64,000 nt of DNA from Actinomycetota bacterium. Lineage in GTDB: Bacteria > Actinomycetota > AC-67. The stretch spans positions 26,383-90,382 of the forward strand of contig JBBDRM010000100.1 of assembly GCA_040905475.1 (NCBI GenBank), in the 5' to 3' direction. Made by a program: the position numbers and the translations under genes. A model generated the notes under the pieces. It saw nothing but the letters and a program-made list of their open reading frames with translations. It was not told the DNA's origin and made no database searches. Of the stretch, positions 8,658 to 64,000 are shown in pieces. How positions within the stretch are numbered: position 1 is the stretch's first letter; each line of letters opens with the position of its first letter.

Positions 8658-8697
8658 CCGGCGCATGGTATCGCGGCACGTGAGAGCCGGCCGGGCC

Positions 8698-8760: not shown

Positions 8761-8791
8761 GCTACCGACCGGCCGTTTCGGCGCCGATACA

Positions 8792-10627: not shown

Positions 10628-10633
10628 CTTGAT

Positions 10634-18078: not shown

Positions 18079-18235
18079 AAATCTGCTTCCTTCGCTCGCG
18101 CCGATCGAGTGATACGCCCCTCTGAACGCTCCGGATGAGCCCGACATTCCTGGTCAGCGGGTCGCCGGAGCGACTCGGGAGCGTCCGCGCTGGATACTAG
18201 CGCGCGCCAACCGACAGAAGCACCGGCGCGGAACC

Positions 18236-47577: not shown

Positions 47578-47996
47578 GCGCGGTCCTTGCCCGCCAGCGT
47601 GAGCCGGACGGTTCCGGAGACATGCTCCCCGAGGCCGGTCGTGCCGCGGATCGAGACCTCGACGTCGTCCCCTTCGACGAGCGTGACATGGCCGGCGAGG
47701 CGCATCACGTCGCCGGGGTAGTTCGGGGAGCCGAGCCGGATGGCGACCTTGCGCAGGATGGCCTCGGGTCCGGCCCAGTCCGTGACGAAGCGTCCGACCA
47801 ATCCGTTGGTCGTCAGGATGTTCATGAAGATGTCGCCGGCCCCGCGCTGCCGCGCCAGCGCGGCGTCGTGGTGGACGTCCTGGAAGTCTCGCGACGCGAG
47901 CGCGCCCGCCACGATGAGGGTCGCGGTGATCGGGATCTCGCTCGCGGGAAGCTCGTCGCCGACCGTCACGTCGCTCGGGCTGAGCGTGCGCATCAC
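47574..47996 (-). CDS. MaoC-like (R)-hydratase hotdog protein (ChsH1-like)
   Basis: The 140-aa hotdog protein carries DFQDVHHDAALARQ. Confidence 0.8.
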   Translation of the reverse strand: MMRTLSPSDVTVGDELPASEIPITATLIVAGALASRDFQDVHHDAALARQRGAGDIFMNILTTNGLVGRFVTDWAGPEAILRKVAIRLGSPNYPGDVMRLAGHVTLVEGDDVEVSIRGTTGLGEHVSGTVRLTLAGKDRA

Positions 47997-49117: not shown

Positions 49118-49120
49118 GGC

Positions 49121-50080: not shown

Positions 50081-51258
50081 CGGCCGCTCCTCGGCATCCC
50101 GAGCCCGGCGGTCGCGATGATGTCGCGCTGGACCTCGTTGACGCCGCCGCCGAACGTAACGACGTATGCCCAGCGGTACATGATCTCGACGCGGCCGCCC
50201 AGCACCGCGCCCGGAGAACCGTGACGGATCTCGCCCGCTTCGCCCAGGACCTCCATGAGGCTGCGATAGACCTCGACGAACAGCTCTGTGCCGTAGACCT
50301 TGACGACCGACGCGTCGGCCGCGTTAAGGATCCCTTTCGTCAGCTCCCAGGCGAGACGCCAGTTCAGCAGCTTCAAGGCCTCGAGCCGAGCGCGCGTTCG
50401 GGCGAGCGTCATCTGCACCCAGGGGCGGTCGATGATGCGGCCGCCGTCGGACGCGGTGGTCTGGGCCGCCCACGCGAGCACGTCGTCGAGGAGCTGCTCG
50501 GCCTTGCCCGAGCATGCCAGCGCGACGCGCTCGTGGTTGAGCTGCGTGGTGATGAGCCCCCACCCCTCGTTCTCGCCGCCGACGATCGCGTCGGCCGTGG
50601 CGCGCACGTCCTCGAAATAGACGGCGTTCGTCCGCCCGTAGTCGATGGTCTCGATCGGGGTCATCTTCACTCCGTCGTGTGACGTCGGGACGATGAAGAT
50701 CGTGAGGCCCTTGTGCTTCGGAGCCTCTGTGTCGGTGCGCGCGGCGAGCCATATGTAGTCCGAGTCGTGCGCGCCCGTCGTGAAGATCTTCTGGCCGTTG
50801 ATCACGTAGCCGGTGCCGTCCTTGACCGCGCGGGTACGGAGCGACGCAAGGTCGGTTCCCGCGCCCGGCTCCGTGTAGCCGATCGCGAAATGCATCTCAC
50901 CGCGAAGGATCGGCCGGAGGAAGCGCTGCTTCTGCTCCTCGGTGCCGTACTGGATCAGCGTGGGGCCGACGGTGTTTAGGGTTACGAACGGGAACGGCAT
51001 GTCGGCGCGGCGGCACTCGTCGATGAAGAGCTGGTGCTCGATGAACGAGCGACCTTGCCCTCCGTACTCCTTCGGCCATCCGAGGCCGAGCCAGCCGTCC
51101 TCCCCCATCTGCCGGACGACGCGGCGGTAGGCGGGCCCCATCTGCTCGCCGGCGCGCGGGCCCAGCTCCGCGCGAAGCTCCGGCGTCAGGACCTTCGCGA
51201 AGTACGCACGGAGCTCGTCGCGCAGCGCGATCTGCTCGTCGGAATAGGCGACGCGCAC
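50077..51258 (-). CDS. Acyl-CoA dehydrogenase
   Basis: The sequence IGYTEPGAGTDLASLRTRAV...NGQKIFTT is present. Confidence 0.85.
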   Translation of the reverse strand: MRVAYSDEQIALRDELRAYFAKVLTPELRAELGPRAGEQMGPAYRRVVRQMGEDGWLGLGWPKEYGGQGRSFIEHQLFIDECRRADMPFPFVTLNTVGPTLIQYGTEEQKQRFLRPILRGEMHFAIGYTEPGAGTDLASLRTRAVKDGTGYVINGQKIFTTGAHDSDYIWLAARTDTEAPKHKGLTIFIVPTSHDGVKMTPIETIDYGRTNAVYFEDVRATADAIVGGENEGWGLITTQLNHERVALACSGKAEQLLDDVLAWAAQTTASDGGRIIDRPWVQMTLARTRARLEALKLLNWRLAWELTKGILNAADASVVKVYGTELFVEVYRSLMEVLGEAGEIRHGSPGAVLGGRVEIMYRWAYVVTFGGGVNEVQRDIIATAGLGMPRSGR

Positions 51259-51264
51259 GTCCGG

Positions 51265-52044
51265 CTACCCAAATCGGGGCACGTGTCCGCCCCACCCCAC
51301 GAAGGACGTCGCGCCGCCGTCGACGACGAACTCGGCGCCGGTGCAGTAAGAGCTTTCGTCGGACGCGAGGAACAAGACCATGTTCACGATGTCGTCGGGG
51401 ACCCCTGCGCGACGGAGCGGGATACCCGACTCGAACAGCTTGTCGACGTCGATGTCTTGCAGGCCCTGCGCGCGGGTCATCGGCGTATCGATGAAGCCCG
51501 GGTGGACGGAATTGACGCGGATCTTGTGCCGGCCGAGCTCCACCGCGGCGGACTTGCTCATCCCGCGGACGGCGAACTTGCTGGCCGTGTATGCGGTGAG
51601 ACGCGGAAGGCCGCGCAATCCCTCGACCGAGGAGATGTTGATGATCGAGCCGCCGCCGGCGCGCTTCATGGCCGGCACGGCCGCCTTCATGCCGAGGAAC
51701 ACGCCGACCTGGTTCACGTTGATGATCTGCATGTAGTCCTCGAGGGTCGAGTCCTCGAGCTTGCCGAACTTGAGGATGCCGGCGTTGTTGAGCAGGACGT
51801 CGAGGCGGCCGAACGACTGCTCGGCGTCCTTGACGGCCGAAACCCAGTCGTCCTCCTTCGTAACGTCGAGATGGGTGTAGATCGCGGCGTTGCCCAGCTC
51901 CTGGGCGAGCGCCTTGCCCTCGTCGTCGAGGATGTCCCCGAGCGCGACCCGGGCACCCTCGGCGACGAACCGGCGAGCAGCGGTGGCGCCCTGGCCACGC
52001 GAGCCACCGGAGATCAGCGCGACCTTGCCGTCGAGCCGTCCCAC
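51265..52044 (-). CDS. SDR-family oxidoreductase (3-hydroxyacyl-CoA / hydroxysteroid dehydrogenase-like)
   Basis: The sequence GKVALISGGSRGQG ... NNAG ... YTASK is present. Confidence 0.85.
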   Translation of the reverse strand: MGRLDGKVALISGGSRGQGATAARRFVAEGARVALGDILDDEGKALAQELGNAAIYTHLDVTKEDDWVSAVKDAEQSFGRLDVLLNNAGILKFGKLEDSTLEDYMQIINVNQVGVFLGMKAAVPAMKRAGGGSIINISSVEGLRGLPRLTAYTASKFAVRGMSKSAAVELGRHKIRVNSVHPGFIDTPMTRAQGLQDIDVDKLFESGIPLRRAGVPDDIVNMVLFLASDESSYCTGAEFVVDGGATSFVGWGGHVPRFG

Positions 52045-52055
52045 AGCTTGTCCTT

Positions 52056-53162
52056 TCAGATCCCGAGCCGGGTTGCCAGCAGCTCCCGATGGTAGACGGG
52101 GTCGCCGAACAGCAGTTCGGAGGACTTCGCACGCTTGAAGTACAGATGCGCGTCGTGCTCCCAGGTGAATCCGATGCCGCCGTGGACCTGGATGTTCTCC
52201 GAGGCGGCGAAGAAGTAGGCGTCCGAGGCGACCGCCTTGGCGAGCGGCGCGCTCAGACGGAGCTCGTCGTCATCCTTGGCCGCGACCCACATCGCGTAGT
52301 AGGCGGCGGTCTTCGCCGACTCGATCTGGAGGAGCATGTCGGCGCACTTGTGCTTGATCGCCTGGAATTGGCCGATGGGGCGACCGAACTGAACCCGGTT
52401 CTTCGCGTAGTCGACGGCCATGTCGAGGCAGCGCTGCGCGCCGCCGACGATCTCGGCCGCGATGCAGACGGAGATGTGGTCGAGCAGCTTGTCGAGCGAC
52501 GCGGGGATGTCCCCAAGCGCGGTTCCGCGCACGTTCTGGAGCTCCAGGCTGGCCTGCTTCCGGGTCTGGTCGAGTGTCGGCAGCGCCTCGCGGGTCAGCC
52601 CGCCCGCGTCGCCGGGGACGACGAACAGGCCGACGCCCTCGGGCGCCCTGGCGGCGACGATCAGCAGGGAAGCGATCCCGCCGTCGACCACGAAGCGTTT
52701 CGTGCCGTTCAGGATCCAGTCGGAGCCTTCTTTGCGCGCGGTCGAGGAGACGCCGGTCGCGTCCCAACGGCCGTTGGGCTCGGCGAACGCGAGCGCGGCG
52801 ATCGTCTCGCCGGACGCGATACCGGGCAGCAACTCCTTGCGTTGCGCGTCGGAGCCGAGATCGAGGATCGCGTTGCCGGCCAGGCACACGCTCGACAGGA
52901 ACGGCGCGGCGAGCAGCGACCGGCCCATCTCCTCGAGCACGATCCCGAGCTCGACGAACGAGAAGCCCTGTCCCCCGTACTCCTCGGGGATGTGGAGGCC
53001 CTGCAGGCCGAGCTCGGCGGCCATCTGCTTCCAGACAGACTCGTCGTAACCGCCGGGCGTCTCCATGAGGCGGCGGACTTCGGTCGTCGGCGACTTGTCC
53101 TCGAGGAAGCGCCGCATCGTTCGGCGAAGCTCTTCCTGCTCGTCGGTGAAGGTGAAATTCAT
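52056..53162 (-). CDS. Acyl-CoA dehydrogenase
   Basis: The start MNFTFTDEQEELRR is at 53160-53162. The ACAD fold is present. Confidence 0.85.
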   Translation of the reverse strand: MNFTFTDEQEELRRTMRRFLEDKSPTTEVRRLMETPGGYDESVWKQMAAELGLQGLHIPEEYGGQGFSFVELGIVLEEMGRSLLAAPFLSSVCLAGNAILDLGSDAQRKELLPGIASGETIAALAFAEPNGRWDATGVSSTARKEGSDWILNGTKRFVVDGGIASLLIVAARAPEGVGLFVVPGDAGGLTREALPTLDQTRKQASLELQNVRGTALGDIPASLDKLLDHISVCIAAEIVGGAQRCLDMAVDYAKNRVQFGRPIGQFQAIKHKCADMLLQIESAKTAAYYAMWVAAKDDDELRLSAPLAKAVASDAYFFAASENIQVHGGIGFTWEHDAHLYFKRAKSSELLFGDPVYHRELLATRLGI

Positions 53163-53166
53163 ATGG

Positions 53167-54321
53167 TTACGGCCTTTCGCTCGAGACCATCCACATCGCG
53201 AAGAACTGCGAGCCACCACCGTACGCGTGACCGAGGGCGAGGCGCGCGCCGTCCACCTGATGCTCGCCGGCCTGGCCGCGGACCTGCATCGCAGCTTCGG
53301 CGAAGCGGAGCATGCCGGACGCGCCGATCGGGTTCGACGAGAGCACGCCGCCGGACGGGTTGATCGGCAGGTCGCCGTCCAGAGCGGTCACGCCCTTGTC
53401 GGTGAGCTGCCACCCGGTCCCTTCATCGGCGAAGCCGAGGTTCTCGAGCCACATCGGTTCGAACCACGAGAACGGAACGTAGACCTCGGCGAGGTCGATC
53501 TGGCCGCGAGGGTCGGTGATCCCGGCCTGCGCGTAGACGTCGGCGGCGCAATCCCGGCCGGCGCGCGGGTTGACCTCGTCTCGCCCGGCCATCCCGAGCG
53601 GCTCGCTGCGCACGGCCGTCCCGCGCACCCAGGCCGCCGGGTTCTTGCCGGTGGCCGCGTACCGCTCGCTGGTGAGCACCATCGCGCATGCGCCGTCCGA
53701 GGACGGGCAGCACTCGAGGAAGCGGATCGGATCCCATAGCATCGGCGACTCGGCGACCTTCTCGAACGAGATGTCGGGGATCCGGAGGTGCGCGTAGGGG
53801 TTGCGCATGCCGTTCACGCGGTCCTTGACGGCGACCTCGATCCCGATGTGGTCGGGGGCCTTCGCACGGCGGATGTACTCGCGGATGTGCGGCGCGAAGT
53901 AGCCGCCGGCTCCGGCGACGAGCGTCGGCTGGAACGGGATCTTCGGCGCGAGGGCCCACATCGCGTTGGACTCGGACTGCTTCTCGAACGCGACCGTGAG
54001 GACCCGCTCGTAGAGACCCGACGCGACGTGGTGCGCGGCAACGACCGCGGTCGACCCGCCGACGCTGCCGGCCGTGTGGACGCGGAGCAGCGGCTTTCCG
54101 ACGGCGCCGAGCGCGTCGGCCAGGTAGAGCTCGGGCATCATGACGCCCTCGAACATGTCCGGCGCCTTTCCGACGACGACCGCGTCGATGTCGGACCAGC
54201 CCATGTTGGCGTCGTCGAGCGCGCGGGTGGCAGCCTCGCGCACGAGCCCGGCGATCGAAAGGTCCTCGCGCGCGGTGTCGTGCTTCGTCTGGCCGATCCC
54301 GACGATCGCGGTGCGCTCCAT
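53167..54321 (-). CDS. Thiolase-like protein (SCP-x/Ltp type; active-site Cys position appears occupied by Ser/Thr)
   Basis: The sequence MERTAIVGIGQTKHD...RVHTAGSVGGSTAVV is present. The track ORF is over-extended. Confidence 0.75.
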   Translation of the reverse strand: MERTAIVGIGQTKHDTAREDLSIAGLVREAATRALDDANMGWSDIDAVVVGKAPDMFEGVMMPELYLADALGAVGKPLLRVHTAGSVGGSTAVVAAHHVASGLYERVLTVAFEKQSESNAMWALAPKIPFQPTLVAGAGGYFAPHIREYIRRAKAPDHIGIEVAVKDRVNGMRNPYAHLRIPDISFEKVAESPMLWDPIRFLECCPSSDGACAMVLTSERYAATGKNPAAWVRGTAVRSEPLGMAGRDEVNPRAGRDCAADVYAQAGITDPRGQIDLAEVYVPFSWFEPMWLENLGFADEGTGWQLTDKGVTALDGDLPINPSGGVLSSNPIGASGMLRFAEAAMQVRGQAGEHQVDGARLALGHAYGGGSQFFAMWMVSSERP

Positions 54322-54323
54322 CG

Positions 54324-55385
54324 CTACTCGCCCTCCAGGACGCAGATCAGATTTTGCTGCAGGCACGGGCCGGAGGTCGCGTGAGCGAGCGCGCGGTTCG
54401 CTTCGCCGTTCGAGATCCGCGTCGCCGCCTCGCCGATCCGGATCAGCCCGGCGGCCATGATCGGGTTCGCCGCGAGCGCGCCGCCGGAGGGGTTGATCTT
54501 GGTTCCGTTCGGCTTCGCGAGCCCGAGCGCGTCGCGCAGGATCAGCTCTTGGTGGGTGAACGGCGCGTAGAGCTCGGCGACGTCGATCTCTCCTTCGAGC
54601 GCGCCGGCCACCTCCGCGGCCTTGCGGGTCGAGGGGGAGCGGGTCAGGTCGCGCACGCCCGGATAATGCGGCTCGATGCGGTGGTCGATGCCGCGGATCC
54701 ACGCGGGTCGATTCGAGACCTTCCGCGCCAGGTCCCCCGCGGCGAGCACGACCGCCGCGGCTCCGTCTGAGATCGGCGCGCAGTCGTGTTTGCGGAGCGG
54801 CGACACGATGTAGGGATCGGCCAGGATCTGCTCGGCGTCGAAGTCGCCGGTCACTTGCGCGTTCGGGTTGGCCTTCGCGTCGCGGCGGCTACGCGCGGCC
54901 ACCTCGGCCATCTCTCGCTCGGTGTGGTCGGTCGACTCGAGCAGCGCGCGGGCCTGCAGCGCGGCGAGCGAGATCGCGTCGGGCCAGAGCGGCGCGAGGT
55001 AGTACGGGTCGAGCTGTCGGGTCAACACGTCGCGCACCTGCCCCGGGGAGGACTTTCCGAAGCCGTAGACGAGCGCGGAGTCGATCACGCCTTCTTGCAA
55101 TAGCACCCACGCCTCGTACAGCGCCCACGCGCCGTCGGCCTCCACGTGTGACTCGCGGACGGGCGGCCAGGCGCCGATCGCCTCGAGGCCGTACACGAAC
55201 GCGAACGGCTGACCGGCGAGGTAGTCGGCCGAGCCCGAGCACGTGAAGCCGATCTCCTTCGATGGGATCCCCGAGTCGGCGACGGCTTTCTGGATCACCG
55301 GCATCAAGATCTCGACCTCGTTCTGGACGGCGTTGTTCCGCACGCTCGTCGATTGCGCGAAGGACACCACGGCGACGTCACGCAT
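54324..55385 (-). CDS. Thiolase-like protein
   Basis: The sequence MRDVAVVSFAQ...FTCSGSADYLAG is present on a thiolase fold. Confidence 0.75.
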   Translation of the reverse strand: MRDVAVVSFAQSTSVRNNAVQNEVEILMPVIQKAVADSGIPSKEIGFTCSGSADYLAGQPFAFVYGLEAIGAWPPVRESHVEADGAWALYEAWVLLQEGVIDSALVYGFGKSSPGQVRDVLTRQLDPYYLAPLWPDAISLAALQARALLESTDHTEREMAEVAARSRRDAKANPNAQVTGDFDAEQILADPYIVSPLRKHDCAPISDGAAAVVLAAGDLARKVSNRPAWIRGIDHRIEPHYPGVRDLTRSPSTRKAAEVAGALEGEIDVAELYAPFTHQELILRDALGLAKPNGTKINPSGGALAANPIMAAGLIRIGEAATRISNGEANRALAHATSGPCLQQNLICVLEGE

Positions 55386-55881
55386 CGGCGCGCATCCTCT
55401 TCAGCACGTCGTCGATCGGCGCGTCGGGCTCTCCGGTCGGGCGCCAGTAGCGGATCGAGTCCCCCGTCGGTCCCCGTTCGGCGTCGGGCACCCAGACCGC
55501 CTCGACGCGCATCCCCATGCGGACGTCGGCCGCCTGGACCTCCTGCAGCAAGGCCGTCAGCGGGATGTCGGCGCCGTCGAGCAGGATGGCGGCGGTCGTG
55601 TAGGGGATCTCGACGGTCGAGCCGGCGAACGGCACGTTGACGACGCAGAAGGTCGTGACGGTCCCGACGTGCGGGAGCTCCACGACTTCGGTCATCGGGA
55701 TGCCGTCGCGCGGGCACGCCCCGCTGCCGCCGCCCACGTACACCTTGTGGCAGCGCTCGCAGCGCTCGCCGAGGATGCGGCCCTCCGCGAGGCCGTTCAA
55801 GAATCGCGACCGCGCGACGCCGGGGGTGTAGTTGTACTCGAGCCGGATCGGCGTCTGGATGATCTCGACCGGATCGGACAT
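55378..55881 (-). CDS. DUF35 OB-fold/Zn-ribbon protein (thiolase partner)
   Basis: The sequence MSDPVEIIQTPIRLEYNYTPG...CERCHKVYVGGGSGAC is present. The start overlaps the stop of the next gene (ATGA). Confidence 0.7.
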   Translation of the reverse strand: MSDPVEIIQTPIRLEYNYTPGVARSRFLNGLAEGRILGERCERCHKVYVGGGSGACPRDGIPMTEVVELPHVGTVTTFCVVNVPFAGSTVEIPYTTAAILLDGADIPLTALLQEVQAADVRMGMRVEAVWVPDAERGPTGDSIRYWRPTGEPDAPIDDVLKRMRADA

Positions 55882-56336
55882 CACGCCTCCGGCTCGAAGC
55901 ATTCGATGTCGAGGATGTGGCCGGTGCGCTCCTCGCGCCAGCGCGGTTTCACGCGCATCCCGGTCGTCATCTTCGTCTCGTCGCCGGCGTCCACCGCGTG
56001 CAACAGCGCCGTGTCGGCGCCGTCGAGGCGGATCAGCGCCCACGCGAACGCCTTCTGCAACGGATTGTTGGGGCGCGGCTCGGCGATCCAGGCCCACGTC
56101 GTCACGACGCCGGACGGGCCGACCGCCACGAACTCACTGAGCTCGGCGGCGGTCTGCGGGTCGTACTCGACCGGCGGGACGATCACGCGGCCGTCGCTCC
56201 CGCGGATGCCCTCGAGCTTCTTGTCGCGCAGGCCGGTCAGGAACCGACCGATCACCCGGCCGACGCTTCGCTTGTACGGATACTCGAGGACGTGGAGCGC
56301 CGTGAGGACCTTGGTGTCGCCCGCCCCCGCTCTCAT
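55881..56336 (-). CDS. DUF35-like OB-fold protein (no Zn ribbon)
   Basis: The 151-aa protein resembles the C-terminal OB part of DUF35 proteins. Confidence 0.55.
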   Translation of the reverse strand: MRAGAGDTKVLTALHVLEYPYKRSVGRVIGRFLTGLRDKKLEGIRGSDGRVIVPPVEYDPQTAAELSEFVAVGPSGVVTTWAWIAEPRPNNPLQKAFAWALIRLDGADTALLHAVDAGDETKMTTGMRVKPRWREERTGHILDIECFEPEA

Positions 56337-56339
56337 GGC

Positions 56340-57893
56340 TCAGATCGCCCGTTCGCGTCCGGCCCAGTACGGGTCGCGCAGCTTGCGCTTGTAGAGCTTG
56401 CCGTTGGGATCGCGCGGAATCTCGGCGATGAAGTCGATCGTGCGCGGGATCTTGTACTTCGCGAGACGGTCGGAGAGGAACGCGGTCAGCTCTTGCTCGA
56501 GCGCCGGGCCCGGCTCGATGCCGGCCGACGGCTCGACGACGGCCTTGACCTCCTCGCCCCAGTCGTCGTGCGGGATGCCGAACACGGCGGCATCGCCGAC
56601 CTTGGGGTGCTGGTGCAGCGTTCCCTCGATCTCGGCGGGATAGATGTTGACGCCGCCCGAGATGATCATGTCGATCTTGCGGTCCATCAGGAACAGGTAG
56701 CCGTCCTCGTCGAGGTAGCCGATGTCCCCGACGGTGAAGAAGCCCTCATTCCAGGTCTTGTCGGTCTTCGCCTTGTCCTTGTGGTACTCGAAGGTGTAGT
56801 CGCCCATCTTCATCCACACGGTGCCTGGCGTCCCCGCCGGGACGGGCTTGTTGTCGTCGTCGAGCACCGAGACCTGCGAGATCGGCCACGGCTTCCCGAC
56901 CGTGCCGGGCTTCTTCAGCCACTCCTCCGGCGTGACGAGCGTGCCGCCGCCCTCGGTGGCGGCGTAGTACTCGTAGATCACCGGGCCCCACCAGTCGAGC
57001 ATCCTGCGCTTGGTCTCGATCGGGCACGGCGCGGCCGAGTGGATCATGTAGCGCAGCGAGCCGAGATCGCGGGTGTCCTTCGCGTCGTTCGGGAGCGCGA
57101 GCAGACGGTGGAACTGCGTGGGAACCATGTGCGAGCTCGTCACCTTGTAACGCTCGATGCGCTCGAGCGTGCCCTCGGGGGTCCACTTGTCCATCAGCAC
57201 GACGTTGTGACCCATGTGCAGGGAGCTCGACGCGAAACGCAGCACGGCCGTGTGGTACAGCGGCGAGACGACGAGGTGGGTGTTGTTGTCTTTCGGCTGG
57301 ATGCCGAACAGCATCAGGAACAAGCCGTTCAGCTCGGCGTTGGTGTCGGGGTCGAAAGGGCTCCCCGGACGGCGAACGCCCTTTGGGCTGCCGGTCGTTC
57401 CGGCGGTGTAGTTCATGATGTCGCCGGTCGCCCGGTCCTCGGGCATGGCGTCCGGCCGGCCGGCCTTCACGTCGGCGTAAGGACGAAAGCCTTCGATGTC
57501 TCCGGCGACCGCGAAGCGCGCGTCCGTCGGGAAGCTCGCCTCCTCGGCCGCGGCGTGCGCGGCGTCGGCGTATCGCGCTTCGGAGATGAAGGCTTTGGCC
57601 TCGGAGTCCTCGAGGATGTACGCGATCTCCGGCGCCGTGAGGTGGTAGTTGATCGGCACGAGGTACCAGCCCGCCTGCATGACGGCGAGGTAGGCCTCGA
57701 CCGCGGCGATCGAGTTCGGGAGCAGGATCGCGACGGTGTCGCCCTTGTTCAGGCCGAGCGCACGCAGCCCGTGAACGAGGCGGTTCGTCTCGGCGAGCAG
57801 CTCGCCGGCCGTGACCTCGACCCCCTCGGGATCGACGAGCGCCAAGCGCGAAGGATCGGCCTGCGCGAGGTTCCAGAACCCGAGTTCGCCCAC
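56340..57893 (-). CDS. Acyl-CoA synthetase (AMP-binding, FadD family)
   Basis: The sequences TAGTTGSPKGV, GDIGYLDEDGYLFLMDRKIDMI and YPAEIE are present. The start is either GTG at 57893 (preferred, because it places the operator upstream) or GTG at 57953. Confidence 0.8.
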   Translation of the reverse strand: MGELGFWNLAQADPSRLALVDPEGVEVTAGELLAETNRLVHGLRALGLNKGDTVAILLPNSIAAVEAYLAVMQAGWYLVPINYHLTAPEIAYILEDSEAKAFISEARYADAAHAAAEEASFPTDARFAVAGDIEGFRPYADVKAGRPDAMPEDRATGDIMNYTAGTTGSPKGVRRPGSPFDPDTNAELNGLFLMLFGIQPKDNNTHLVVSPLYHTAVLRFASSSLHMGHNVVLMDKWTPEGTLERIERYKVTSSHMVPTQFHRLLALPNDAKDTRDLGSLRYMIHSAAPCPIETKRRMLDWWGPVIYEYYAATEGGGTLVTPEEWLKKPGTVGKPWPISQVSVLDDDNKPVPAGTPGTVWMKMGDYTFEYHKDKAKTDKTWNEGFFTVGDIGYLDEDGYLFLMDRKIDMIISGGVNIYPAEIEGTLHQHPKVGDAAVFGIPHDDWGEEVKAVVEPSAGIEPGPALEQELTAFLSDRLAKYKIPRTIDFIAEIPRDPNGKLYKRKLRDPYWAGRERAI

Positions 57894-57902
57894 GTCGGCG
57901 AA

Positions 57903-57919
57903 ATTAGAACACGTTCTCG
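57903..57919 (-). promoter_or_regulatory. KstR-type TetR operator-like site (sense of fadD: GAGAACGTGTTCTAATT)
   Basis: It matches the TnnAACnnGTTnnA consensus and is identical to the 17-mer at 60468-60484. It lies about 10 nt upstream of the preferred fadD start. Confidence 0.5.
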
Positions 57920-57968
57920 TTATTGGGCGCAACCTGCCCGGCAGCCAGGGCACGAGCCCCGCGCCACG

Positions 57969-60362
57969 TCATTCCGTCCGGAGGATCACGGCCGGTTGGA
58001 GGCGTGCCGCCGTGCGGCCGGGGATCGCCGCCATCAGGTTCGCGAGGAGGATCGCCGCCGGAGCGATGAGCAGGACGACGATCACCGGTACCACCGCGCG
58101 CGGCACCACGCTGATCTGGGCGGCGAGCAGATGCCACGTCCAGCGTCCGAGCGCGATCCCGCCGGGCACCGCTGGGCAGATCGACGCGACCGTCAGCACC
58201 GTCGCCTGCCAGGCGACGGTCGCGCGGAGTTGCCGCCCCTCGAACCCGAGGGTCTTGAGGATCGCAAGGTCCCGGCTCCGGCGCCGCACGCCGCTCGCCA
58301 TCGTGTGCGCGAGGGTGGCAGCGGCGACGACCGCGAGGATCGACCCGAGGACGAGCGGGAGGCTGCGGACACGACCGAAGCTGACGACGTCCGCCGGGGT
58401 CTCGCTGGGTCCTTCGCCAAACTCTTCCGCCGTCCGTCCGAAGAGGGGGGCCAGGGAGCTGATCACCTCCTCACGGTCGGCCCCGGGGGCGAACCGGATC
58501 ATCGCGTCGCTCACGAGGCCGGTCAGGTCGATGCCGGGAGGAGCCAGCCGGAACGCTCCGTCCAGGGTCAACAACGCGCCCTCGCCCGGCTCGGCGTTCA
58601 CGAATCCGAATGGTGGGATCACCGTCTGTCCGACGATCGTGTAGGCGGCGGGCTGAGCTTCGCCGATGGGGATGCGAACCCTGATCGTGTCTCCTATCCG
58701 GGCGTGAACGCGTCGCGCGGTCTTGGAAGTGAGCGCGATCTCGTTCGGGTTGCCGGGCTCGCGGCCGTCCACGATCGGCGGCCCGGCGGCGCCGCGCACC
58801 GGTTCGATGCCGAGCGCGAAGACCTGCCGGCCGCCGACCTCGAGCGGGATATCGGTTCCGATCGTCACGTCGGTGACGCCGGGATTGGCGAGGAACCCGG
58901 CCGTGTTGTCCCGGAGGTCGGGCCCGTCGCCGTAGTGGGTAAGGAACGCGTCCCAGCCCACGCCGTACAGGGGCGGGGAGGCGATCAGGTGGTTGAGGCT
59001 CGCGCCGAACGTCACCGTCGCGATGAGCACCGCGAGGCCGAACGCGGCACCGACGACCGACGACCGAACGGGGACGGCCGTGCCTCCGCGCCCCATCTCG
59101 AACGCGAGGCGCGCTCCGGCGACGCCGGAGGCGGGCATGGACGCGCGGGCGAAGAATGCCGCGACGCGCGAAGGGCGGAGCGCGAAGCTTTCCCGCAACG
59201 AAGACGCCGAACGCATCCGGGCCGACCTCCACGCGGGATACGCCGTCAGCAGGACGGTCACGAGGAGCAGGCCGGCGGCGCCGAGGCCGACGACCGAGAC
59301 GTCGAACGCGAGGCCGGGAGAGGGCTCCGCGAAGCGCGCGTCCCCGACGGGAGTCAGCGGCGATAGCGCGAACGCGACGAGGACGGCGAGCGCGGCCGAC
59401 GCGATCCCGACGATCCCGGCCCGAAGGACCCCGATCGACGCGAGCCATCCGCGTCCGAAACCCAACGCCGAAAGCGTCGGGAAATCTCCCGAGCCGAGGA
59501 ACGTCTGCCGTGCGAGCGCTTGTCCGCCGATGAGGATCGTCGCGATGCCTCCGAACAGCGCGAGGAACCAGAGGCCGGTGGCCTGGAAACGGAACGAGCG
59601 TTGCGTGCCGAAGCCGAGCTCCTCGGCCGTGGTCGGGAAGAGCGGCAGCTCGGGCGCGAGCTGGTCGAGGGCGGCGCGAAACGCGGGAACGTCCGCGGCG
59701 CCGTTCTTCAGCTTGAGGAACAGCGTTCCGCGCTCCGGCGCCCCGTCCCCCGAGGAGAGCCTGTTCCCGTAGACGCGGAACAGCGCGGGCGTCAGGTGGA
59801 TCGAGGGGTAGAGCCCAACGTATTGGGGAGGGAAGTCGCCGGGCCCGGCGACGATCCCCACGACCTTCAACATCGCATTGGGCAGTCCCTCTGCCGCCAG
59901 GTCGTCGTCGAACTCGTCCTCGACGAGCGGGAATTCGCTTCCGACTTTCAGATCCAGGACGCGCGCGATCCCGATGCCGACCACGACTTCCTCCACTCGC
60001 GAGGAGTCGTACATGCGCCCCTCGATGATCTTGAAGCGGTTGATCGTCCGGCCGAGCCGATCGTCCACGGACGCCACGGCAGCGTGGTCGCGCTCGAGGA
60101 ATATGACCAGCGACCCGCGGGCGTACGCGGAGACCTGGGGCAAGCGGATGATCTCGTCGAGGGGGACGTCGATCCCGAAGCTCCCGTCGTCGAGGATGAT
60201 GAGATCCGCGGCGGTCTGCGCCTCCAAGAACCGGTCGTGCGCGCTGTCGGTTCGTCGCGCGCCGGCGGCGGCCGCGATCACGATCCCTCCGGCGAGTCCG
60301 AGCAGCAGCACGATCCCGGTAAGCGCCTTCCAGCGAGCACGAAGCTCGGCTCGTAGCCACAT
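57969..60362 (-). CDS. FtsX/MacB-type ABC-transporter permease with two FtsX-like domains; no ATPase gene in the window
   Basis: The likely start is MWLRAELRARWKALTGIVLLLGLAGG. There are multiple TM helices and two large extracytoplasmic loops. The first 48 codons of the track ORF are probably not coding. The exact start is +/-1 nt. Confidence 0.7.
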   Translation of the reverse strand: MWLRAELRARWKALTGIVLLLGLAGGIVIAAAAGARRTDSAHDRFLEAQTAADLIILDDGSFGIDVPLDEIIRLPQVSAYARGSLVIFLERDHAAVASVDDRLGRTINRFKIIEGRMYDSSRVEEVVVGIGIARVLDLKVGSEFPLVEDEFDDDLAAEGLPNAMLKVVGIVAGPGDFPPQYVGLYPSIHLTPALFRVYGNRLSSGDGAPERGTLFLKLKNGAADVPAFRAALDQLAPELPLFPTTAEELGFGTQRSFRFQATGLWFLALFGGIATILIGGQALARQTFLGSGDFPTLSALGFGRGWLASIGVLRAGIVGIASAALAVLVAFALSPLTPVGDARFAEPSPGLAFDVSVVGLGAAGLLLVTVLLTAYPAWRSARMRSASSLRESFALRPSRVAAFFARASMPASGVAGARLAFEMGRGGTAVPVRSSVVGAAFGLAVLIATVTFGASLNHLIASPPLYGVGWDAFLTHYGDGPDLRDNTAGFLANPGVTDVTIGTDIPLEVGGRQVFALGIEPVRGAAGPPIVDGREPGNPNEIALTSKTARRVHARIGDTIRVRIPIGEAQPAAYTIVGQTVIPPFGFVNAEPGEGALLTLDGAFRLAPPGIDLTGLVSDAMIRFAPGADREEVISSLAPLFGRTAEEFGEGPSETPADVVSFGRVRSLPLVLGSILAVVAAATLAHTMASGVRRRSRDLAILKTLGFEGRQLRATVAWQATVLTVASICPAVPGGIALGRWTWHLLAAQISVVPRAVVPVIVVLLIAPAAILLANLMAAIPGRTAARLQPAVILRTE

Positions 60363-60467
60363 CAGCACCGCGCTCACGCGCCGAACATACCGCCACCGTG
60401 GTCTCGGCTCGATGCAGCCCGCCACCGTGTCCACGGGGGTGCCAGCACGGCGGTTGAGCCCGCGAGG

Positions 60468-60484
60468 GAGAACGTGTTCTAATT
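60468..60484 (+). promoter_or_regulatory. KstR-type TetR operator-like site GAGAACGTGTTCTAATT in the permease/ADH divergent region
   Basis: It is about 35 nt upstream of the ADH ATG and an inverted copy of the 57903-57919 site. Confidence 0.5.
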
Positions 60485-60517
60485 CTTGTCCAACCAGTCC
60501 GAGCACGGAGGTCGACG

Positions 60518-61597
60518 ATGCGAGCAGCTATCCTTCCTGGTCTCAACGAGAAGCTCGAGGTACGCGACGACGTGAGCGTCGTCGGGCCGGGCCCCGGCGA
60601 GGTCCACATCCGGATCGTCGCCAGCGGCGTCTGCCACTCCGATATCTCGGCGCAGAACGGGACGCTGCCGTCGCCGATGCCCGGCGTGCTGGGGCACGAG
60701 GGTGCCGGCGAGATCCTCGCCGTCGGCGACGGCGTGACGACCCTTGCTCCCGGCGATCACGTGATCGTGTCCTGGGTCCCGCCGTGCGGATGGTGCCGCT
60801 TGTGCCTCGAGGGACAGCCCAACCTCTGCCAGACGTATCTGTTCGATGCGCTCACGGCGCAGCGGTTCACGATGGGCGACACACCGATCGGCGCGATGGC
60901 CGGGACCGGCACGTTCGCCGAGGAACTCGTCGTCCCGCAGGTCGCAGCGATCAAGATCCCCGACGACGTGCCGCTCGACGTGGCCTCGCTGGTGGGGTGC
61001 GGGGTGATGACGGGCGTCGGCGCCGCGCTTAACACCGCCAAAGTAAGGCCCGGCTCGTCCGTGGTCATCTTCGGCTGCGGTGGCGTGGGAGTGAGTGCGA
61101 TCCAAGGCGCGCGCATCGCCGGCGCGGCGGAGATCGTGGCGGTGGACCTCCTTGACCACAAGCTCGAGTCCGCGAAGAAGTTCGGCGCGACGCACGCGGT
61201 GAAGCCGGGCGATCTCGCGGCGTTGTCCGCCGACCTGACCGGCGGGCTCGGCTTCGACTACGCGTTCGAGGTGATCGGGCTCCCCGACACGATCCGCAGC
61301 GCGTGGGATGCAACCCGGCGCGGCGGGACGACGGTCGTCGTCGGAGCCGGCCGGGCCGAGGCGATGGTGTCGTTCAGCGCGTTCGAACTGTTCTATTTCG
61401 AGAAGAAGCTGCTCGGCTGCTTCTACGGCTCGGCGGACGTCCGCACGGACTTCCACCGGATGTTGCGGCTGTGGCGGGCCGGAAAGCTCGACCTCGAGGG
61501 CATGATCACGCGACGGATCGACCTGTCGGAGATCAACGACGCGTTCGACGCCTGCAAGAACGGCGACGTGATCCGCACGGTCATCGAGTTCAAGTAA
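60518..61597 (+). CDS. Zn-dependent alcohol dehydrogenase (MDR family)
   Basis: The sequences GVCHSD, GHEGAGEI, and the Rossmann motif GCGGVG are present. Confidence 0.85.
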   Translation: MRAAILPGLNEKLEVRDDVSVVGPGPGEVHIRIVASGVCHSDISAQNGTLPSPMPGVLGHEGAGEILAVGDGVTTLAPGDHVIVSWVPPCGWCRLCLEGQPNLCQTYLFDALTAQRFTMGDTPIGAMAGTGTFAEELVVPQVAAIKIPDDVPLDVASLVGCGVMTGVGAALNTAKVRPGSSVVIFGCGGVGVSAIQGARIAGAAEIVAVDLLDHKLESAKKFGATHAVKPGDLAALSADLTGGLGFDYAFEVIGLPDTIRSAWDATRRGGTTVVVGAGRAEAMVSFSAFELFYFEKKLLGCFYGSADVRTDFHRMLRLWRAGKLDLEGMITRRIDLSEINDAFDACKNGDVIRTVIEFK

Positions 61598-61601
61598 CCG
61601 C

Positions 61602-62438
61602 GTGTCGACGGTCGTCGTCACCGGATCCGCCTCCGGGATCGGTGCCGCCTGCGCCGCGCGCCTCGCGAGCGAAGGCCATGAGATCATCGGCGTCGACATG
61701 CGCGACGCGGATGTGATCGCGGATCTGTCGACCGTGGACGGCCGCCGCTCGGCGATCGACGCTTGCGGTTCGGCGCCTGGAGGGTCGATCGCGGGCCTGG
61801 TGACGTGCGCCGGCCTTGCGGGGATGCCCGACCGGCCGGGGTCGCTGCTGACGGCGGTGAACTACTTCGGCACCGTCGAGCTGCTGGAAGGGTTGCGGCC
61901 GCTGCTCGGCGGCGGAGCGGCGGTCGCGATCAGCTCCAACTCGACGACCGTGCAGCCCGGTGTGCCGATGGACGTCGTCGAGGCATGCCTTTCCGGGGAC
62001 GTCGAGCGCGCGGCCGCAGCGGCCGACGCGACGCCCGGCGGATCGATCGCGACCTACCCCGCCACCAAGATGGCGGTCGCCCGTTGGGTACGGCGGCAGG
62101 CGCCGCGGAAGGCGTGGATCGGAGCCGGGATCCGGCTCAACGCGGTCGCGCCGGGGTTGATCACGACTCCGATGACCGACGAGCTTCGCTCCGATCCCCT
62201 CCTCGGCCCGGCGCTCGACCTGTTCCCCGTGCCGATGGGCCGGCCCGGCACGCCCGAGGAGGTCGCAGCGGTCGTATCGTTCTTACTCGGACCCGACGCG
62301 AGCTTGCTGGCCGGCTCGATCGTGTTCGCCGACGGGGGCTCGGACGCGAAGATCCGCGCCGACGACTGGCCGGCTCCATGGGTCGTGGACGATCCAGCCG
62401 CCGCGTGGTTCGGCGATCGGGAAGAGCCGGACGACTAA
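61602..62438 (+). CDS. SDR-family oxidoreductase (hydroxysteroid dehydrogenase-like)
   Basis: The sequence VVVTGSASGIGAA ... YPATK is present. Confidence 0.8.
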   Translation: MSTVVVTGSASGIGAACAARLASEGHEIIGVDMRDADVIADLSTVDGRRSAIDACGSAPGGSIAGLVTCAGLAGMPDRPGSLLTAVNYFGTVELLEGLRPLLGGGAAVAISSNSTTVQPGVPMDVVEACLSGDVERAAAAADATPGGSIATYPATKMAVARWVRRQAPRKAWIGAGIRLNAVAPGLITTPMTDELRSDPLLGPALDLFPVPMGRPGTPEEVAAVVSFLLGPDASLLAGSIVFADGGSDAKIRADDWPAPWVVDDPAAAWFGDREEPDD

Positions 62439-62538: not shown

Positions 62539-63732
62539 CTAAAGGCGCTCGGGGGTGAACTTCACCGGCAGGTGCTTCAGGCCGTTGATGAAGTTGGAGC
62601 GCAGACGTGAGGGCGGGCCCGTCATGGCCATATCGGGCAGCCGCGCGAGCAGCTCCTCGAACATGATCTTGATCTCGAGCTCCGCCAGCGAGAAGCCCAG
62701 GCAGAAGTGCGCTCCGCCGCCGCCGAACGTCACGTGCTCGCACTCGGGCCTGCCGACGTCGAAGCGGTGCGGGTTCTCGAACACCTCGTCGTCGCGGTTC
62801 GCGGAGATGTACCAGAGGATCACCTTGTCGCCGGCCTTGATCTCCTGGCCGCGCATCTCGAAATCGCGCGTCGCCGTGCGGCGGAAGTGCATGACCGGCG
62901 TGGCCATGCGCAACATCTCGTTGATGGCGGTCGGGAGCAACGACTGGTCGTCGAGGAGCCGGTCGCGCTGCTCCGGGTTCTCCATCAGGAAGTGCATGCC
63001 GTGCGAGATCAGGTTGCGTGTCGTCTCGTTCCCGGCGACCGCGAGCAGCAGGAAGAACACGTCGAACTCGAGCTGGTTGAGCTTCTCGCCCTCGACCTCC
63101 GCCTCGAGCAGGAGGCTCAGCAGGTCGTCGCGACGCTCCTCGCGACGCTCCGCAGCCAGCTTGTCCCAGTAAGCGAACATCTCGGACGCGGCGTTGGTCG
63201 CGATCTCCATCGAGCCGCCGTACTCGGGGTCCGCCCCCATCGCGATCATCGTGTTCGACCAGTCGAAGATCTTGCGATGGTCTTCAGGCGGCACCCCGAT
63301 CATCTCGGAGATGACGGCGAGCGGCAGCTCGGCGGCCACGTCGACGACGAAGTCGCACTCCCCTTTCGTCGCGACCGAGTCGACGATCTGCCGGGCGATG
63401 TCTCGGATGTGCGGCTCGAGCTTGGCGATCATCTTGGGGTGGAAGCCGTGGCTCACGAGCTGACGCAGCCGCGTGTGTTGCGGCGGATCCATGTTGACCA
63501 TCATCAGATCGGCGCCGCCTTGCGGGTCCTCGATATTGGTTCCGTGCGCGGAGGAGAACGCCTCGTGATGCCGGGACGCGTCCACGACGTCGGCGTGCTT
63601 CACCAGGTTCCAGAAGCCCGTCCCGTACGGCTGCGGGTTGAACGAAACCGGCGCGTTCTCGCGCAGCCAGTCGAAGACGTGATGCGGGACGCTCGGGACG
63701 AAGAGATCGAGATCGTCGAGGTCGACGTTCAT
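62539..63732 (-). CDS. Cytochrome P450 (CYP125/CYP142-like steroid-hydroxylase family)
   Basis: The heme loop FGGGGAHFCLG and the EXXR motif are present. The C-terminus is ...LKHLPVKFTPERL. Confidence 0.9.
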   Translation of the reverse strand: MNVDLDDLDLFVPSVPHHVFDWLRENAPVSFNPQPYGTGFWNLVKHADVVDASRHHEAFSSAHGTNIEDPQGGADLMMVNMDPPQHTRLRQLVSHGFHPKMIAKLEPHIRDIARQIVDSVATKGECDFVVDVAAELPLAVISEMIGVPPEDHRKIFDWSNTMIAMGADPEYGGSMEIATNAASEMFAYWDKLAAERREERRDDLLSLLLEAEVEGEKLNQLEFDVFFLLLAVAGNETTRNLISHGMHFLMENPEQRDRLLDDQSLLPTAINEMLRMATPVMHFRRTATRDFEMRGQEIKAGDKVILWYISANRDDEVFENPHRFDVGRPECEHVTFGGGGAHFCLGFSLAELEIKIMFEELLARLPDMAMTGPPSRLRSNFINGLKHLPVKFTPERL

Positions 63733-64000
63733 CCGCGCTCTGGGGTGAACTTCACCGGCATGTGCTTGATGCCGTTCACGAAGTTCGACGCGAGGCGCTG
63801 CACCGGGCCGGCGAGCGCCATGTCGGGCAAACGGGCGAGCAGCTCCTCGAACATGATCTTGATCTCGACCTCGGCCAGCGAGAAGCCGAGACAGAAGTGC
63901 GCACCGCCCCCGCCGAACGTCACGTGCTCGCCGGGATTGCGGCCGACGTCGAAGCGGTGCGGGTCGGGGAACGCCTCCGGGTCGCGGTTCGCCGCCACGT
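63729..64000 (-). CDS. Cytochrome P450, C-terminal part; near-identical paralog of the downstream P450, and the gene runs off the window
   Basis: FGGGGAHFCLGFSLAEVEIKIMFEELLARLPDMA is about 85% identical to the neighbour over 90 aa. The stop overlaps the start of the next P450 (ATGA). Confidence 0.85.
   Translation of the reverse strand, partial: VAANRDPEAFPDPHRFDVGRNPGEHVTFGGGGAHFCLGFSLAEVEIKIMFEELLARLPDMALAGPVQRLASNFVNGIKHMPVKFTPERG

What the first reader, a model, noticed from the sequence alone, without database searches (positions are those of the whole stretch)
57903..60484. Two inverted copies of a 17-mer that matches the KstR (cholesterol-catabolism TetR repressor) operator consensus
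GAGAACGTGTTCTAATT occurs at 60468-60484 on the plus strand and as its reverse complement at 57903-57919. Both are intergenic. The first lies between the divergent FtsX permease and the ADH-SDR genes. The second lies just upstream of fadD, the first gene of the 13-gene beta-oxidation operon. The core TAGAACACGTTCTC / GAGAACGTGTTCTA fits the published mycobacterial KstR motif TnnAACnnGTTnnA at 13 of 14 positions in either orientation. That predicts one TetR-type repressor controlling three transcription units, and it ties this island to sterol or steroid catabolism. No TetR gene is in the window.
Basis: partly seen in the sequence, partly recalled or inferred. Interest (0 to 1): 0.8.

Follow-up and report, generated by a model that had tools for sequence, protein, structure and literature searches.

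The report
KstR-type repressor sites, steroid side-chain genes
The two inverted 17-base copies are almost certainly binding sites for a KstR-type (TetR-family) repressor sitting on the promoters of a steroid side-chain breakdown operon and of a neighbouring alcohol dehydrogenase operon; this is an ordinary new instance of a well-known control system, in an uncultured actinobacterium.

Summary
No shuffle of 100 gave two matches.

A weight matrix built from the 47 published mycobacterial KstR sites scores the copies 30.6 and about 19 bits. Published sites score 16.8-35.5, and the next-best window hit scores 12.4.

Each copy points at a gene start. One ends 8 nt before the GTG of a fadD-like CoA ligase that heads a 12-gene minus-strand operon. 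The other ends 33 nt before the ATG of a Zn-ADH/SDR pair.

The site is a phylogenetic footprint: 44 of 79 fadD orthologs carry a matrix hit within 250 nt upstream (expected 0.027 per locus). In seven relatives ADH and fadD are direct divergent neighbours sharing 1-2 such sites, so the window's two copies look like one compact divergent control region split by an inserted FtsX permease gene.

The operon encodes close homologs of Ltp2, ChsH2 and ltp3/ltp4; tandem CYP125-like P450s lie adjacent in the window, outside the operon.

No TetR gene lies in the window, but KstR-like genes sit next to the orthologous clusters in 14 relatives. The source genome's regulator could not be examined.

Verdict: known kind, new instance, low interest.

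The parts
57902..57918 (-). Operator copy 1: 14-bp palindrome core 57905-57918 plus AAT(T). It ends 8 nt upstream of the fadD GTG.
   Evidence: Exact 17-mer. The 20-mer ACGAGAACGTGTTCTAATTT scores 30.6 bits on the KstR matrix. GAACGTGTTCTA is invariant in 7 aligned orthologous upstream regions, at the same -25 position in L002, L003 and L004.
60468..60484 (+). Operator copy 2: core 60468-60481 plus AAT(T). It ends 33 nt upstream of the ADH ATG, whose GGAGG Shine-Dalgarno sequence is at 60507-60511.
   Evidence: Exact 17-mer. Scores 18.8-19.2 bits. Conserved upstream of ADH orthologs in L002, L003 and L004.
57903..57932 (-). Inferred fadD promoter: -35-like TTGCGC (57932-57927), 18-nt spacer, -10-like TCTAAT (57908-57903), or alternatively TAATTT. 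The start codon follows 8-10 nt later, so the mRNA would be leaderless or nearly so.
   Evidence: Read by eye. A TTGC element sits at a conserved distance in L002, L003, L004 and L028. The consensus scanner did not call it because position 2 of the hexamer is C. This is inference only.
60454..60483 (+). Inferred ADH promoter with the same geometry: TTGAGC (60454-60459), 18-nt spacer, TCTAAT (60478-60483).
   Evidence: Read by eye; L002 has the same TTGAGC-18-TCTAAT arrangement. Not called by the scanner. Inference only.
56340..57893 (-). fadD-like acyl-CoA ligase, first gene of the operon.
   Evidence: Pfam AMP-binding plus AMP-binding_C. Orthologs at 60-80% identity in 80 genomes. No specific NCBIfam family reaches its cutoff.
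45227..56339 (-). Eleven further tightly packed genes: two DUF35/OB proteins, ltp4-like and ltp3-like thiolase-fold proteins, four acyl-CoA dehydrogenases, an SDR, a ChsH2-like MaoC-DUF35 hydratase and an Ltp2-like aldolase.
   Evidence: Pfam. Ltp2 matches 6ok1_A at E 4e-163. ChsH2 DUF35 matches 6ok1_B at 1e-49 and the MaoC domain matches 4wnb at 5e-33. PRK07937 and PRK08313 lipid-transfer/thiolase families score above cutoff. No further matrix hit inside the cluster.
60518..62438 (+). Zn-dependent alcohol dehydrogenase (60518-61597) and SDR (61602-62438): the second operator-controlled unit.
   Evidence: Pfam. Class I/III ADH-like. ADH orthologs are the direct divergent neighbours of fadD in L003, L004, L019, L028, L042, L062 and L065.
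57969..60362 (-). FtsX/MacB-type permease lying between the two operators. It is a lineage-specific insertion, and its regulation by the site is not established.
   Evidence: Pfam FtsX plus MacB_PCD. Absent from the orthologous position in all relatives. L002 has an unrelated 394-aa gene there instead. A Logan gene call starts it at about 60281.
62539..64000 (-). Two tandem CYP125-like P450 genes: P450a 62539-63732, and P450b from 63729 to the window end (truncated). They are context only; their promoter lies outside the window.
   Evidence: P450a's best solved relative is the CYP125 ancestral reconstruction 8vxi at E 1.7e-154, followed by CYP124, CYP125 and CYP142. Paralogy shown. P450 orthologs in L002, L003 and L004 carry their own upstream site.

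Best explanation
The two copies are operators for a KstR-type TetR-family repressor encoded elsewhere in the genome.

Each 14-bp palindrome (GAGAAC GT GTTCTA) overlaps the -10 region of a promoter. One drives a probably leaderless 12-gene operon for CoA activation and beta-oxidation/aldol cleavage of a steroid-type branched side chain (fadD, DUF35, ltp3/4-like, ChsE-type ACADs, SDR, ChsH2, Ltp2). The other drives a Zn-ADH/SDR pair.

A repressor dimer bound there would exclude RNA polymerase. By analogy with mycobacterial KstR, an acyl-CoA thioester of the partly oxidised sterol would release it.

The copies are inverted because they are the two halves of an ancestrally compact divergent ADH<>fadD control region, later split by insertion of an FtsX permease gene. 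The identity reaches 17 bases because the AAT(T) after the palindrome belongs to the shared -10-like hexamer and to the extended KstR motif.

Shown: the sequence match, the conservation, the gene homologies and the synteny. Inferred: the promoter elements, actual binding, the ligand, and the presence of the regulator in this genome.
For: - Chance is excluded.
- A matrix of 47 published sites gives 30.6 and about 19 bits, against 12.4 for the best other window hit. The fadD site differs from the EMSA-positive Rv0940c site ATTAGAACGTGTTCTAATTT at only 2 of 20 positions.
- 44 of 79 fadD orthologs have a hit of at least 15 bits within 250 nt upstream, against 0.027 expected per locus. The core is invariant while the flanks diverge.
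- The exact 16-17-mer recurs only at the orthologous fadD and ADH promoters of L002 and L004, and at single sites in L003 and L050.
- A divergent ADH<>fadD pair with 1-2 sites occurs in seven relatives.
- KstR-like TetR genes lie within 10 kb in 14 loci. The L021 protein matches M. tuberculosis KstR 5aqc at E 8e-29 over its full length, with the next family near 1e-9. Several of these regulator genes are themselves preceded by a site.
- The operon encodes Ltp2, ChsH2 and ltp3/4 homologs, and adjacent P450s are CYP125-like. These are the gene classes listed for the mycobacterial KstR regulon.
- The published operator also overlaps a putative -10 region.
- The KstR ligand is 3-hydroxy-cholest-5-en-26-oyl-CoA, according to the review PMC6678751.
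Against: - No TetR gene is in the 64-kb window, and the rest of the genome could not be searched.
- The outer base of the distal half-site is G rather than the consensus T. The one published M. tuberculosis site that combines this G with a second deviation (Rv0223c) was EMSA-negative. However, MSMEG_2645, which has the same G, was de-repressed in the kstR mutant, and 18 of 44 orthologous sites carry G.
- No consensus promoter was called by the scanner.
- No ring-degradation genes are in the window, so the substrate could be another methyl-branched lipid.
- fadD and ADH have no steroid-specific family assignment.
Confidence: 0.85

Rival explanations
1. The sites are operators of a different repressor, either a TetR paralog or another family, that happens to recognise a KstR-like palindrome. 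It would control a general branched-chain or fatty-acid beta-oxidation cluster that has nothing to do with sterols.
For: No regulator is seen in the window. fadD and ADH are not assignable to steroid-specific families. No ring-opening genes are in the window. The mycobacterial KstR regulon itself includes non-cholesterol lipid genes.
Against: The 20-bp match to the experimentally derived KstR matrix is as good as that of bona fide sites. The only TetR family recurrently linked to the orthologous clusters is KstR-like. Ltp2/ChsH2(DUF35) at E 4e-163 and 1e-49, and a CYP125-like P450, are steroid side-chain enzymes.
Confidence: 0.1
2. The 17-mers are terminal inverted repeats or a dispersed repeat of a mobile element that brought in the FtsX gene lying between them.
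For: There are two inverted identical copies 2.5 kb apart flanking a gene that is absent from the same position in relatives.
Against: No transposase lies between them; the gene is a permease. Identity ends at 17 bases. The same sequence sits at the same distance from fadD and ADH in genomes that lack the FtsX gene, including genomes where the two sites are only 45-60 bp apart. There are no further copies in 64 kb.
Confidence: 0.02
3. The palindrome acts at the RNA level, as a hairpin, terminator or attenuator, or it is a chance palindrome.
For: It is a perfect 6+2+6 inverted repeat.
Against: Both regions fold worse than their shuffles (z +2.0 and +1.4). A 2-nt centre cannot form a stable loop, and there is no T-run. 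Chance is excluded by the shuffles and by conservation.
Confidence: 0.01

Closest known systems
KstR (Rv3574 / MSMEG_6042) operator and regulon of Mycobacterium and Rhodococcus (Kendall et al. 2007, PMC1995591)
   Same: - The same 14-bp palindrome TnnAACnnGTTnnA with the same extended flanks (CTAATT); scores fall within the range of published sites.
- Placement over the -10 region, and frequent occurrence in divergent intergenic regions, sometimes in pairs.
- Target genes of the same classes: fadD, fadE/ACAD, ltp2, ltp3, ltp4, cyp125 neighbourhood.
- KstR-like regulators in relatives have KstR as their best solved homolog.
   Different: - The host is an uncultured Actinomycetota lineage. The best fadD relative is 80% identical, a MAG labelled only 'Actinomycetota bacterium'.
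- The regulator gene is not in the window.
- The outer base of the distal half-site is G.
- The fadD operator sits 8 nt from the start codon, implying a leaderless mRNA.
- Gene order differs from the mycobacterial Cho region, with one long operon headed by fadD.
- A Zn-ADH/SDR unit and an inserted FtsX permease are present, while mce4 and ring-degradation genes are not seen here.
KstR2 (Rv3557c) operator AnCAAGnnCTTGnT
   Same: A TetR-family palindromic operator of the same pathway.
   Different: The sequence differs. The only one-mismatch hits in the window lie inside coding sequence, and two of them merely reflect P450 paralogy. This is not a KstR2 site.
ChsH1-ChsH2-Ltp2 and ChsE steroid side-chain enzymes (M. 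tuberculosis, Thermomonospora curvata; PDB 6ok1, 4wnb, 4w78)
   Same: The operon encodes a 547-bit match to Ltp2, a ChsH2-type MaoC plus DUF35 protein, and alpha/beta-type ACAD pairs.
   Different: No separate ChsH1 was recognised. Additional DUF35 and ltp3/4-like genes and the fadD sit in the same operon. The substrate has not been determined.

Membership tests
KstR operator / KstR regulon | 14-bp palindrome TnnAACnnGTTnnA with the extended 20-bp profile of the published sites | tested here: met
   7 of 8 specified positions match. Matrix scores are 30.6 and 18.8-19.2 bits, against 16.8-35.5 for the 47 published sites.
KstR operator / KstR regulon | Site lies in the promoter region of the regulated gene, overlapping or near the -10 region | tested here: inconclusive
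   The sites end 8 nt and 33 nt before the start codons, and -35/-10-like hexamers with identical geometry can be read by eye. The consensus scanner calls no promoter, and no transcription start data exist.
KstR operator / KstR regulon | Site conserved upstream of orthologous genes (phylogenetic footprint) | tested here: met
   44 of 79 fadD orthologs carry a site of at least 15 bits within 250 nt, against 0.027 expected. The core is invariant in alignments. ADH and P450 orthologs also carry sites.
KstR operator / KstR regulon | A KstR ortholog is encoded in the same genome | not testable with these tools
   None in the 64-kb window. The source genome is not in the collections. Indirect evidence only: KstR-like genes lie within 10 kb of the cluster in 14 related loci, one of them verified against PDB KstR at E 8e-29.
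KstR operator / KstR regulon | Regulated genes belong to lipid/steroid catabolism classes known for the regulon | tested here: met
   Ltp2, ChsH2, ltp3/ltp4-like, ACADs and fadD in the operon, with a CYP125-like P450 next door. Regulon list from Kendall 2007.
KstR operator / KstR regulon | Repressor dimer binds the site and is released by a sterol-CoA thioester; genes are de-repressed in a regulator mutant | not testable with these tools
   Needs EMSA/ChIP and expression data. The ligand is known only for mycobacterial KstR.
IS / MITE terminal inverted repeats | Inverted repeats flanking a transposase or a short non-coding element, present in multiple copies with target-site duplications | tested here: not met
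   The intervening gene is an FtsX permease. There are only 2 copies, and the same sites are present in relatives without the insert.
KstR2 operator | Palindrome AnCAAGnnCTTGnT in intergenic DNA | tested here: not met
   There are only one-mismatch hits, none of them at the two sites under study; two merely reflect P450 paralogy.

The most novel reading that the evidence does not exclude
In this uncultured Actinomycetota lineage the KstR-type regulon may have recruited an orphan FtsX/MacB-type permease, inserted exactly between the two operators, as a sterol or lipid transporter. This would stand in place of, or beside, the Mce4 system. A distant FtsX homolog in an Acidimicrobiales MAG likewise ends just upstream of a KstR-type site followed by an enoyl-CoA hydratase. 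Alternatively, the regulon here may serve a non-steroid methyl-branched lipid, since no ring-degradation genes are seen.
Probability: 0.1. Interest if true: 0.45.

Novelty: new member of a known kind. Interest (0 to 1): 0.25.

Why it matters
The finding gives a confident regulatory annotation: two promoters, one predicted repressor, and a steroid side-chain catabolic operon in an uncultured soil actinobacterium.

It also shows that a matrix trained only on Mycobacterium sites transfers to distant Actinomycetota, Acidimicrobiia and even Myxococcota-labelled MAGs. That makes the matrix useful for predicting sterol-degrading potential and regulons in metagenomes.

It does not reveal a new mechanism. 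The only mildly new points are the split divergent promoter with an inserted FtsX permease and the apparently leaderless fadD arrangement.

Tried and rejected
- **RNA hairpin or terminator reading.** Both regions fold worse than their shuffles, and there is no terminator pattern.
- **KstR2 motif.** There are only one-mismatch hits, none at the two sites; two merely reflect P450 paralogy.
- **Mobile-element inverted repeats.** Rejected by synteny and copy number.
- **TetR gene in the window.** Pfam on all GC3-supported ORFs, plus two home-made HMMs (generic TetR N-terminus and KstR-like), found nothing even at E<=10.
- **Recovering the source genome to look for kstR and ring-degradation genes.**
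  - Exact look-up of ADH found only a 2.8-kb Logan contig.
  - P450a is not on record.
  - The best genome relative is 80% identical.
  - The metagenome scan found a 97%-identical but 2.6-kb contig that does not extend past the window.
- **Is the gene inserted in L002 related to the FtsX gene?** No similarity.
- **Steroid-specific assignment of fadD and ADH.** None was found.
- **Literature on KstR outside Mycobacteriales.** Two searches gave nothing specific.
Full report
**1. The observation**

GAGAACGTGTTCTAATT occurs exactly twice in the 64-kb window, even when three mismatches are allowed. The copies are at 60468-60484 on the plus strand and 57902-57918 on the minus strand.

Dinucleotide-preserving shuffles give a mean of 0.01 matches, and none of 100 shuffles gave two. 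Identity ends at the 17 bases; the flanks are unrelated. The loose consensus TnnAACnnGTTnnA with one mismatch is not rare (9 hits against 4.2 expected).

**2. A better test of the KstR resemblance**

I took the 47 sites (20-mers) of Table 3 of Kendall et al. 2007 (PMC1995591), built a log-odds matrix and scanned both strands of the window.

| Sequence scored | Score (bits) |
|---|---|
| fadD-side site, ACGAGAACGTGTTCTAATTT | 30.6 |
| ADH-side site | 18.8-19.2 |
| Published sites | 16.8-35.5 (median 27.2) |
| Next-best window hit (in coding sequence) | 12.4 |
| 99.99th percentile of window scores | 5.6 |

The fadD site differs at only two of 20 positions from the EMSA-positive M. tuberculosis Rv0940c site ATTAGAACGTGTTCTAATTT. 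The AATT that extends the 17-mer beyond the palindrome is typical of the published extended motif (CTAATT/CTAGTT).

**3. Anatomy**

The window has about 68% G+C, and third-position G+C identifies the genes.

- **fadD side.** The AMP-ligase ORF has a conserved N-terminus starting at GTG 57893 (VGELGFWN...). Orthologs align from residue 1, while the DNA upstream diverges apart from the site. The 17-mer therefore ends 8 nt before the start codon. That leaves no room for a ribosome-binding site and suggests a leaderless or near-leaderless mRNA.
- **ADH side.** The 17-mer ends 33 nt before ATG 60518, with GGAGG at 60507-60511.
- **Orientation.** Both copies have the same orientation relative to the gene they precede.
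- **Promoter elements.** By eye, both have the same geometry: a -35-like TTGCGC/TTGAGC, an 18-nt spacer that contains most of the palindrome, and a -10-like TCTAAT (alternatively TAATTT/TAATTC). TTGC/TTGA elements sit at the same distance in L002, L003, L004 and L028. The consensus scanner calls no promoter here because the hexamer lacks A at position 2, so the promoter assignment is inference. Kendall et al. likewise describe the KstR palindrome as overlapping a putative -10 region.

**4. The genes**

*Minus-strand operon.* Twelve tightly packed or overlapping genes run downstream of the fadD site on the minus strand (45227-57893; I count 12, not 13). By Pfam they are:

- fadD
- two DUF35/OB proteins
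- two SCP-x/thiolase-fold proteins, which pass the NCBIfam cutoffs of PRK07937 and PRK08313 (lipid-transfer/thiolase-domain families). I read these as ltp4- and ltp3-like.
- four acyl-CoA dehydrogenases
- an SDR
- a MaoC plus zinc-ribbon plus OB protein
- a further thiolase-fold protein

The last two match the solved steroid side-chain aldolase complex. Ltp2 (6ok1_A) matches at E 4e-163, ChsH2 DUF35 (6ok1_B) at 1e-49, and the M. tuberculosis ChsH2 MaoC domain (4wnb) at 5e-33.

*Plus-strand unit.* This is a class I/III-type Zn-ADH and an SDR.

*P450 genes.* Two tandem P450 genes run convergently beyond the ADH-SDR unit. The best solved relative of the complete one is an ancestral CYP125 reconstruction (8vxi, E 1.7e-154), followed by CYP124, CYP125 and CYP142, which are steroid C26-monooxygenases.

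*Comparison with the known regulon.* ltp2, ltp3, ltp4, fadE26-29 and fadD17/19 are listed as members of the mycobacterial KstR regulon, and sites lie before Rv3521 and Rv3545c. I identify Rv3545c as cyp125 and Rv3521 as the first gene of an Rv3521-ltp4-ltp3 unit from my own knowledge of the M. tuberculosis annotation.

*Rest of the window.* Positions 1-40 kb are housekeeping genes (ffh, ftsY, smc, fpg, rnc, coaD, recG, ddl, gpsA and others). No ring-degradation genes and no mce genes were seen.

**5. Phylogenetic footprint**

A scan of one genome per species with the FadD protein returned 80 loci at 60-80% identity. They are mostly MAGs of Actinomycetota, Acidimicrobiia, Frankiales/Mycobacteriales and Myxococcota, plus some Streptomyces. 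The source genome itself is absent; the best relative, L002, is 80% identical.

- With the mycobacterial matrix, 44 of 79 loci have a site of at least 15 bits within 250 nt upstream of the fadD ortholog. The expectation is 0.027 per locus, even at the enriched overall density of these loci.
- In the four closest loci the core begins at -25 or -23, as in the window.
- In a 7-genome alignment GAACGTGTTCTA is invariant while the flanks vary.
- The consensus of the 44 sites is AnnAGAACnTGTTCTAGnnT. The distal outer base is G in 18 of 44 sites, so the window's G is a common natural variant.
- The Streptomyces homologs lack the site.
- The exact 16-17-mer recurs at both the fadD and ADH promoters of L002 and L004, and singly in L003 and L050. 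It is not a dispersed repeat.

**6. Why there are two inverted copies**

In L003, L004, L019, L028, L042, L062 and L065 the ADH ortholog (60-69% identity) is the immediate divergent neighbour of fadD. In L003 and L004 the 116-125-bp intergenic region holds two sites in inverted orientation, one next to each gene. L028 has one perfect site and one degenerate site.

In the window, an FtsX/MacB-type permease gene (57969-60362) lies between the two sites. In L002 an unrelated 394-aa gene with no Pfam hit sits there, on the other strand. The simplest reading is an ancestral compact divergent control region with two operators that has twice been split by gene insertion.

There is no transposase, there are only two copies, and the same sites exist where no insert exists.

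**7. The regulator**

No TetR-family ORF exists in the window. This rests on Pfam scans of all supported ORFs, a generic TetR N-terminal HMM, and a KstR-like HMM at E<=10.

In the related loci, 14 carry a KstR-like TetR within 10 kb of fadD. The L021 protein's best solved relatives are M. tuberculosis and M. smegmatis KstR (5aqc at 8e-29; also 5cw8 and 3mnl) over the full length, with the next family at about 1e-9. The recognition-helix region is nearly the same (...GGYEAVQMR.V...VA.GT.YRYF.SK...).

Four of these genes have a strong site directly upstream (L014, L016, L046, L079; 24-30 bits). In L037 matrix sites lie just upstream of the regulator's ORF. In L021, L022 and L037 the simple pattern search also finds TAGAACACGTTCTC a little further upstream; in L021 this lies beyond an intervening acyl-CoA dehydrogenase gene. 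That is the autoregulation expected of KstR.

In mycobacteria KstR sites are scattered over the chromosome, so the absence of kstR from a 64-kb window is not evidence against it. Whether this genome has a kstR could not be tested. Exact-protein look-ups found only a 2.8-kb contig or nothing, and the metagenome scan found a 97%-identical but short contig.

**8. Mechanism**

Shown:
- two high-scoring, conserved KstR-type palindromes immediately upstream of two gene starts;
- steroid side-chain-type enzymes downstream;
- KstR-like regulators linked to the orthologous clusters.

Inferred:
- A KstR-type dimer binds each palindrome and occludes the -10 region and transcription start.
- A sterol-derived acyl-CoA releases it. 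For mycobacterial KstR this is 3-hydroxy-cholest-5-en-26-oyl-CoA, according to the review PMC6678751.
- The CYP125-like P450s and the FadD ligase would make that inducer, giving the usual product-induced loop.

Control of the FtsX gene is open. Its start is at least 106 nt from the site, and it is a recent insert. I therefore support two, not three, controlled units.

**9. Rivals**

- **A different regulator with KstR-like specificity, or a non-steroid substrate.** This remains possible at about 10%.
- **A mobile-element repeat.** Effectively excluded.
- **An RNA structure.** Effectively excluded; both regions fold worse than their shuffles.
- **KstR2 sites.** Absent.

**10. Verdict**

It is an ordinary new instance of the well-described KstR operator/regulon in an uncultured actinobacterium. 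Minor points of interest are the split divergent promoter, the leaderless geometry, and the transferability of the mycobacterial matrix to distant MAG lineages. Novelty: new member of a known kind. Interest is low, at 0.25.

Noticed in passing
window 62539-64000 (-): Two tandem CYP125-like P450 paralogs with an ATGA stop/start overlap at 63729-63732. Their C-terminal 88 aa are about 78% identical. The repeated 20-mer CCTCGAACATGATCTTGATC at 62655 and 63845 is a consequence of this paralogy. Their promoter lies beyond the window end.
   Followed up: partly
window 57969-60362 (-); L035 18498-20804: The FtsX/MacB-type permease has no ABC ATPase gene nearby and is absent from orthologous loci. A distant homolog (32% identity) in an Acidimicrobiales MAG also ends just upstream of a KstR-type site (about 20-22 bits) followed by an enoyl-CoA hydratase. 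This hints at a recurrent association with the regulon.
   Followed up: partly
L014, L016, L025, L046 (loci labelled Deltaproteobacteria/Myxococcales/Gammaproteobacteria): KstR-like TetR genes occur next to fadD orthologs in MAGs outside Actinomycetota; three of them (L014, L016, L046) have a strong KstR-type site directly upstream. This is consistent with the reported horizontal spread of the actinobacterial cholesterol pathway.
   Followed up: partly
L023 (CAMAQM010000006.1): This contig is labelled 'Bifidobacterium breve' MAG but encodes a 64%-identical FadD and a 62%-identical ADH of this cluster. It is probably mislabelled or mis-binned.
   Followed up: no
fadD-upstream sites in 44 related loci: The promoter-distal outer base of the palindrome is G instead of T in 18 of 44 sites, whereas the proximal outer A is kept in 42 of 44. 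This asymmetry may reflect overlap of the proximal half with the -10 element.
   Followed up: partly
window 8684-11368: A GAF-domain histidine kinase (+) is adjacent to an ANTAR-domain regulator (-). This possible antitermination system sits among the housekeeping genes.
   Followed up: no
window 18113-19477 (+): A caspase-like (Peptidase_C14) protein is encoded between the ThiF/rhodanese gene and fpg.
   Followed up: no
L002 7998-9179 (-): A 394-aa protein with no Pfam hit occupies the position between the ADH and fadD operators in the closest relative. It is unrelated to the window's FtsX gene.
   Followed up: partly
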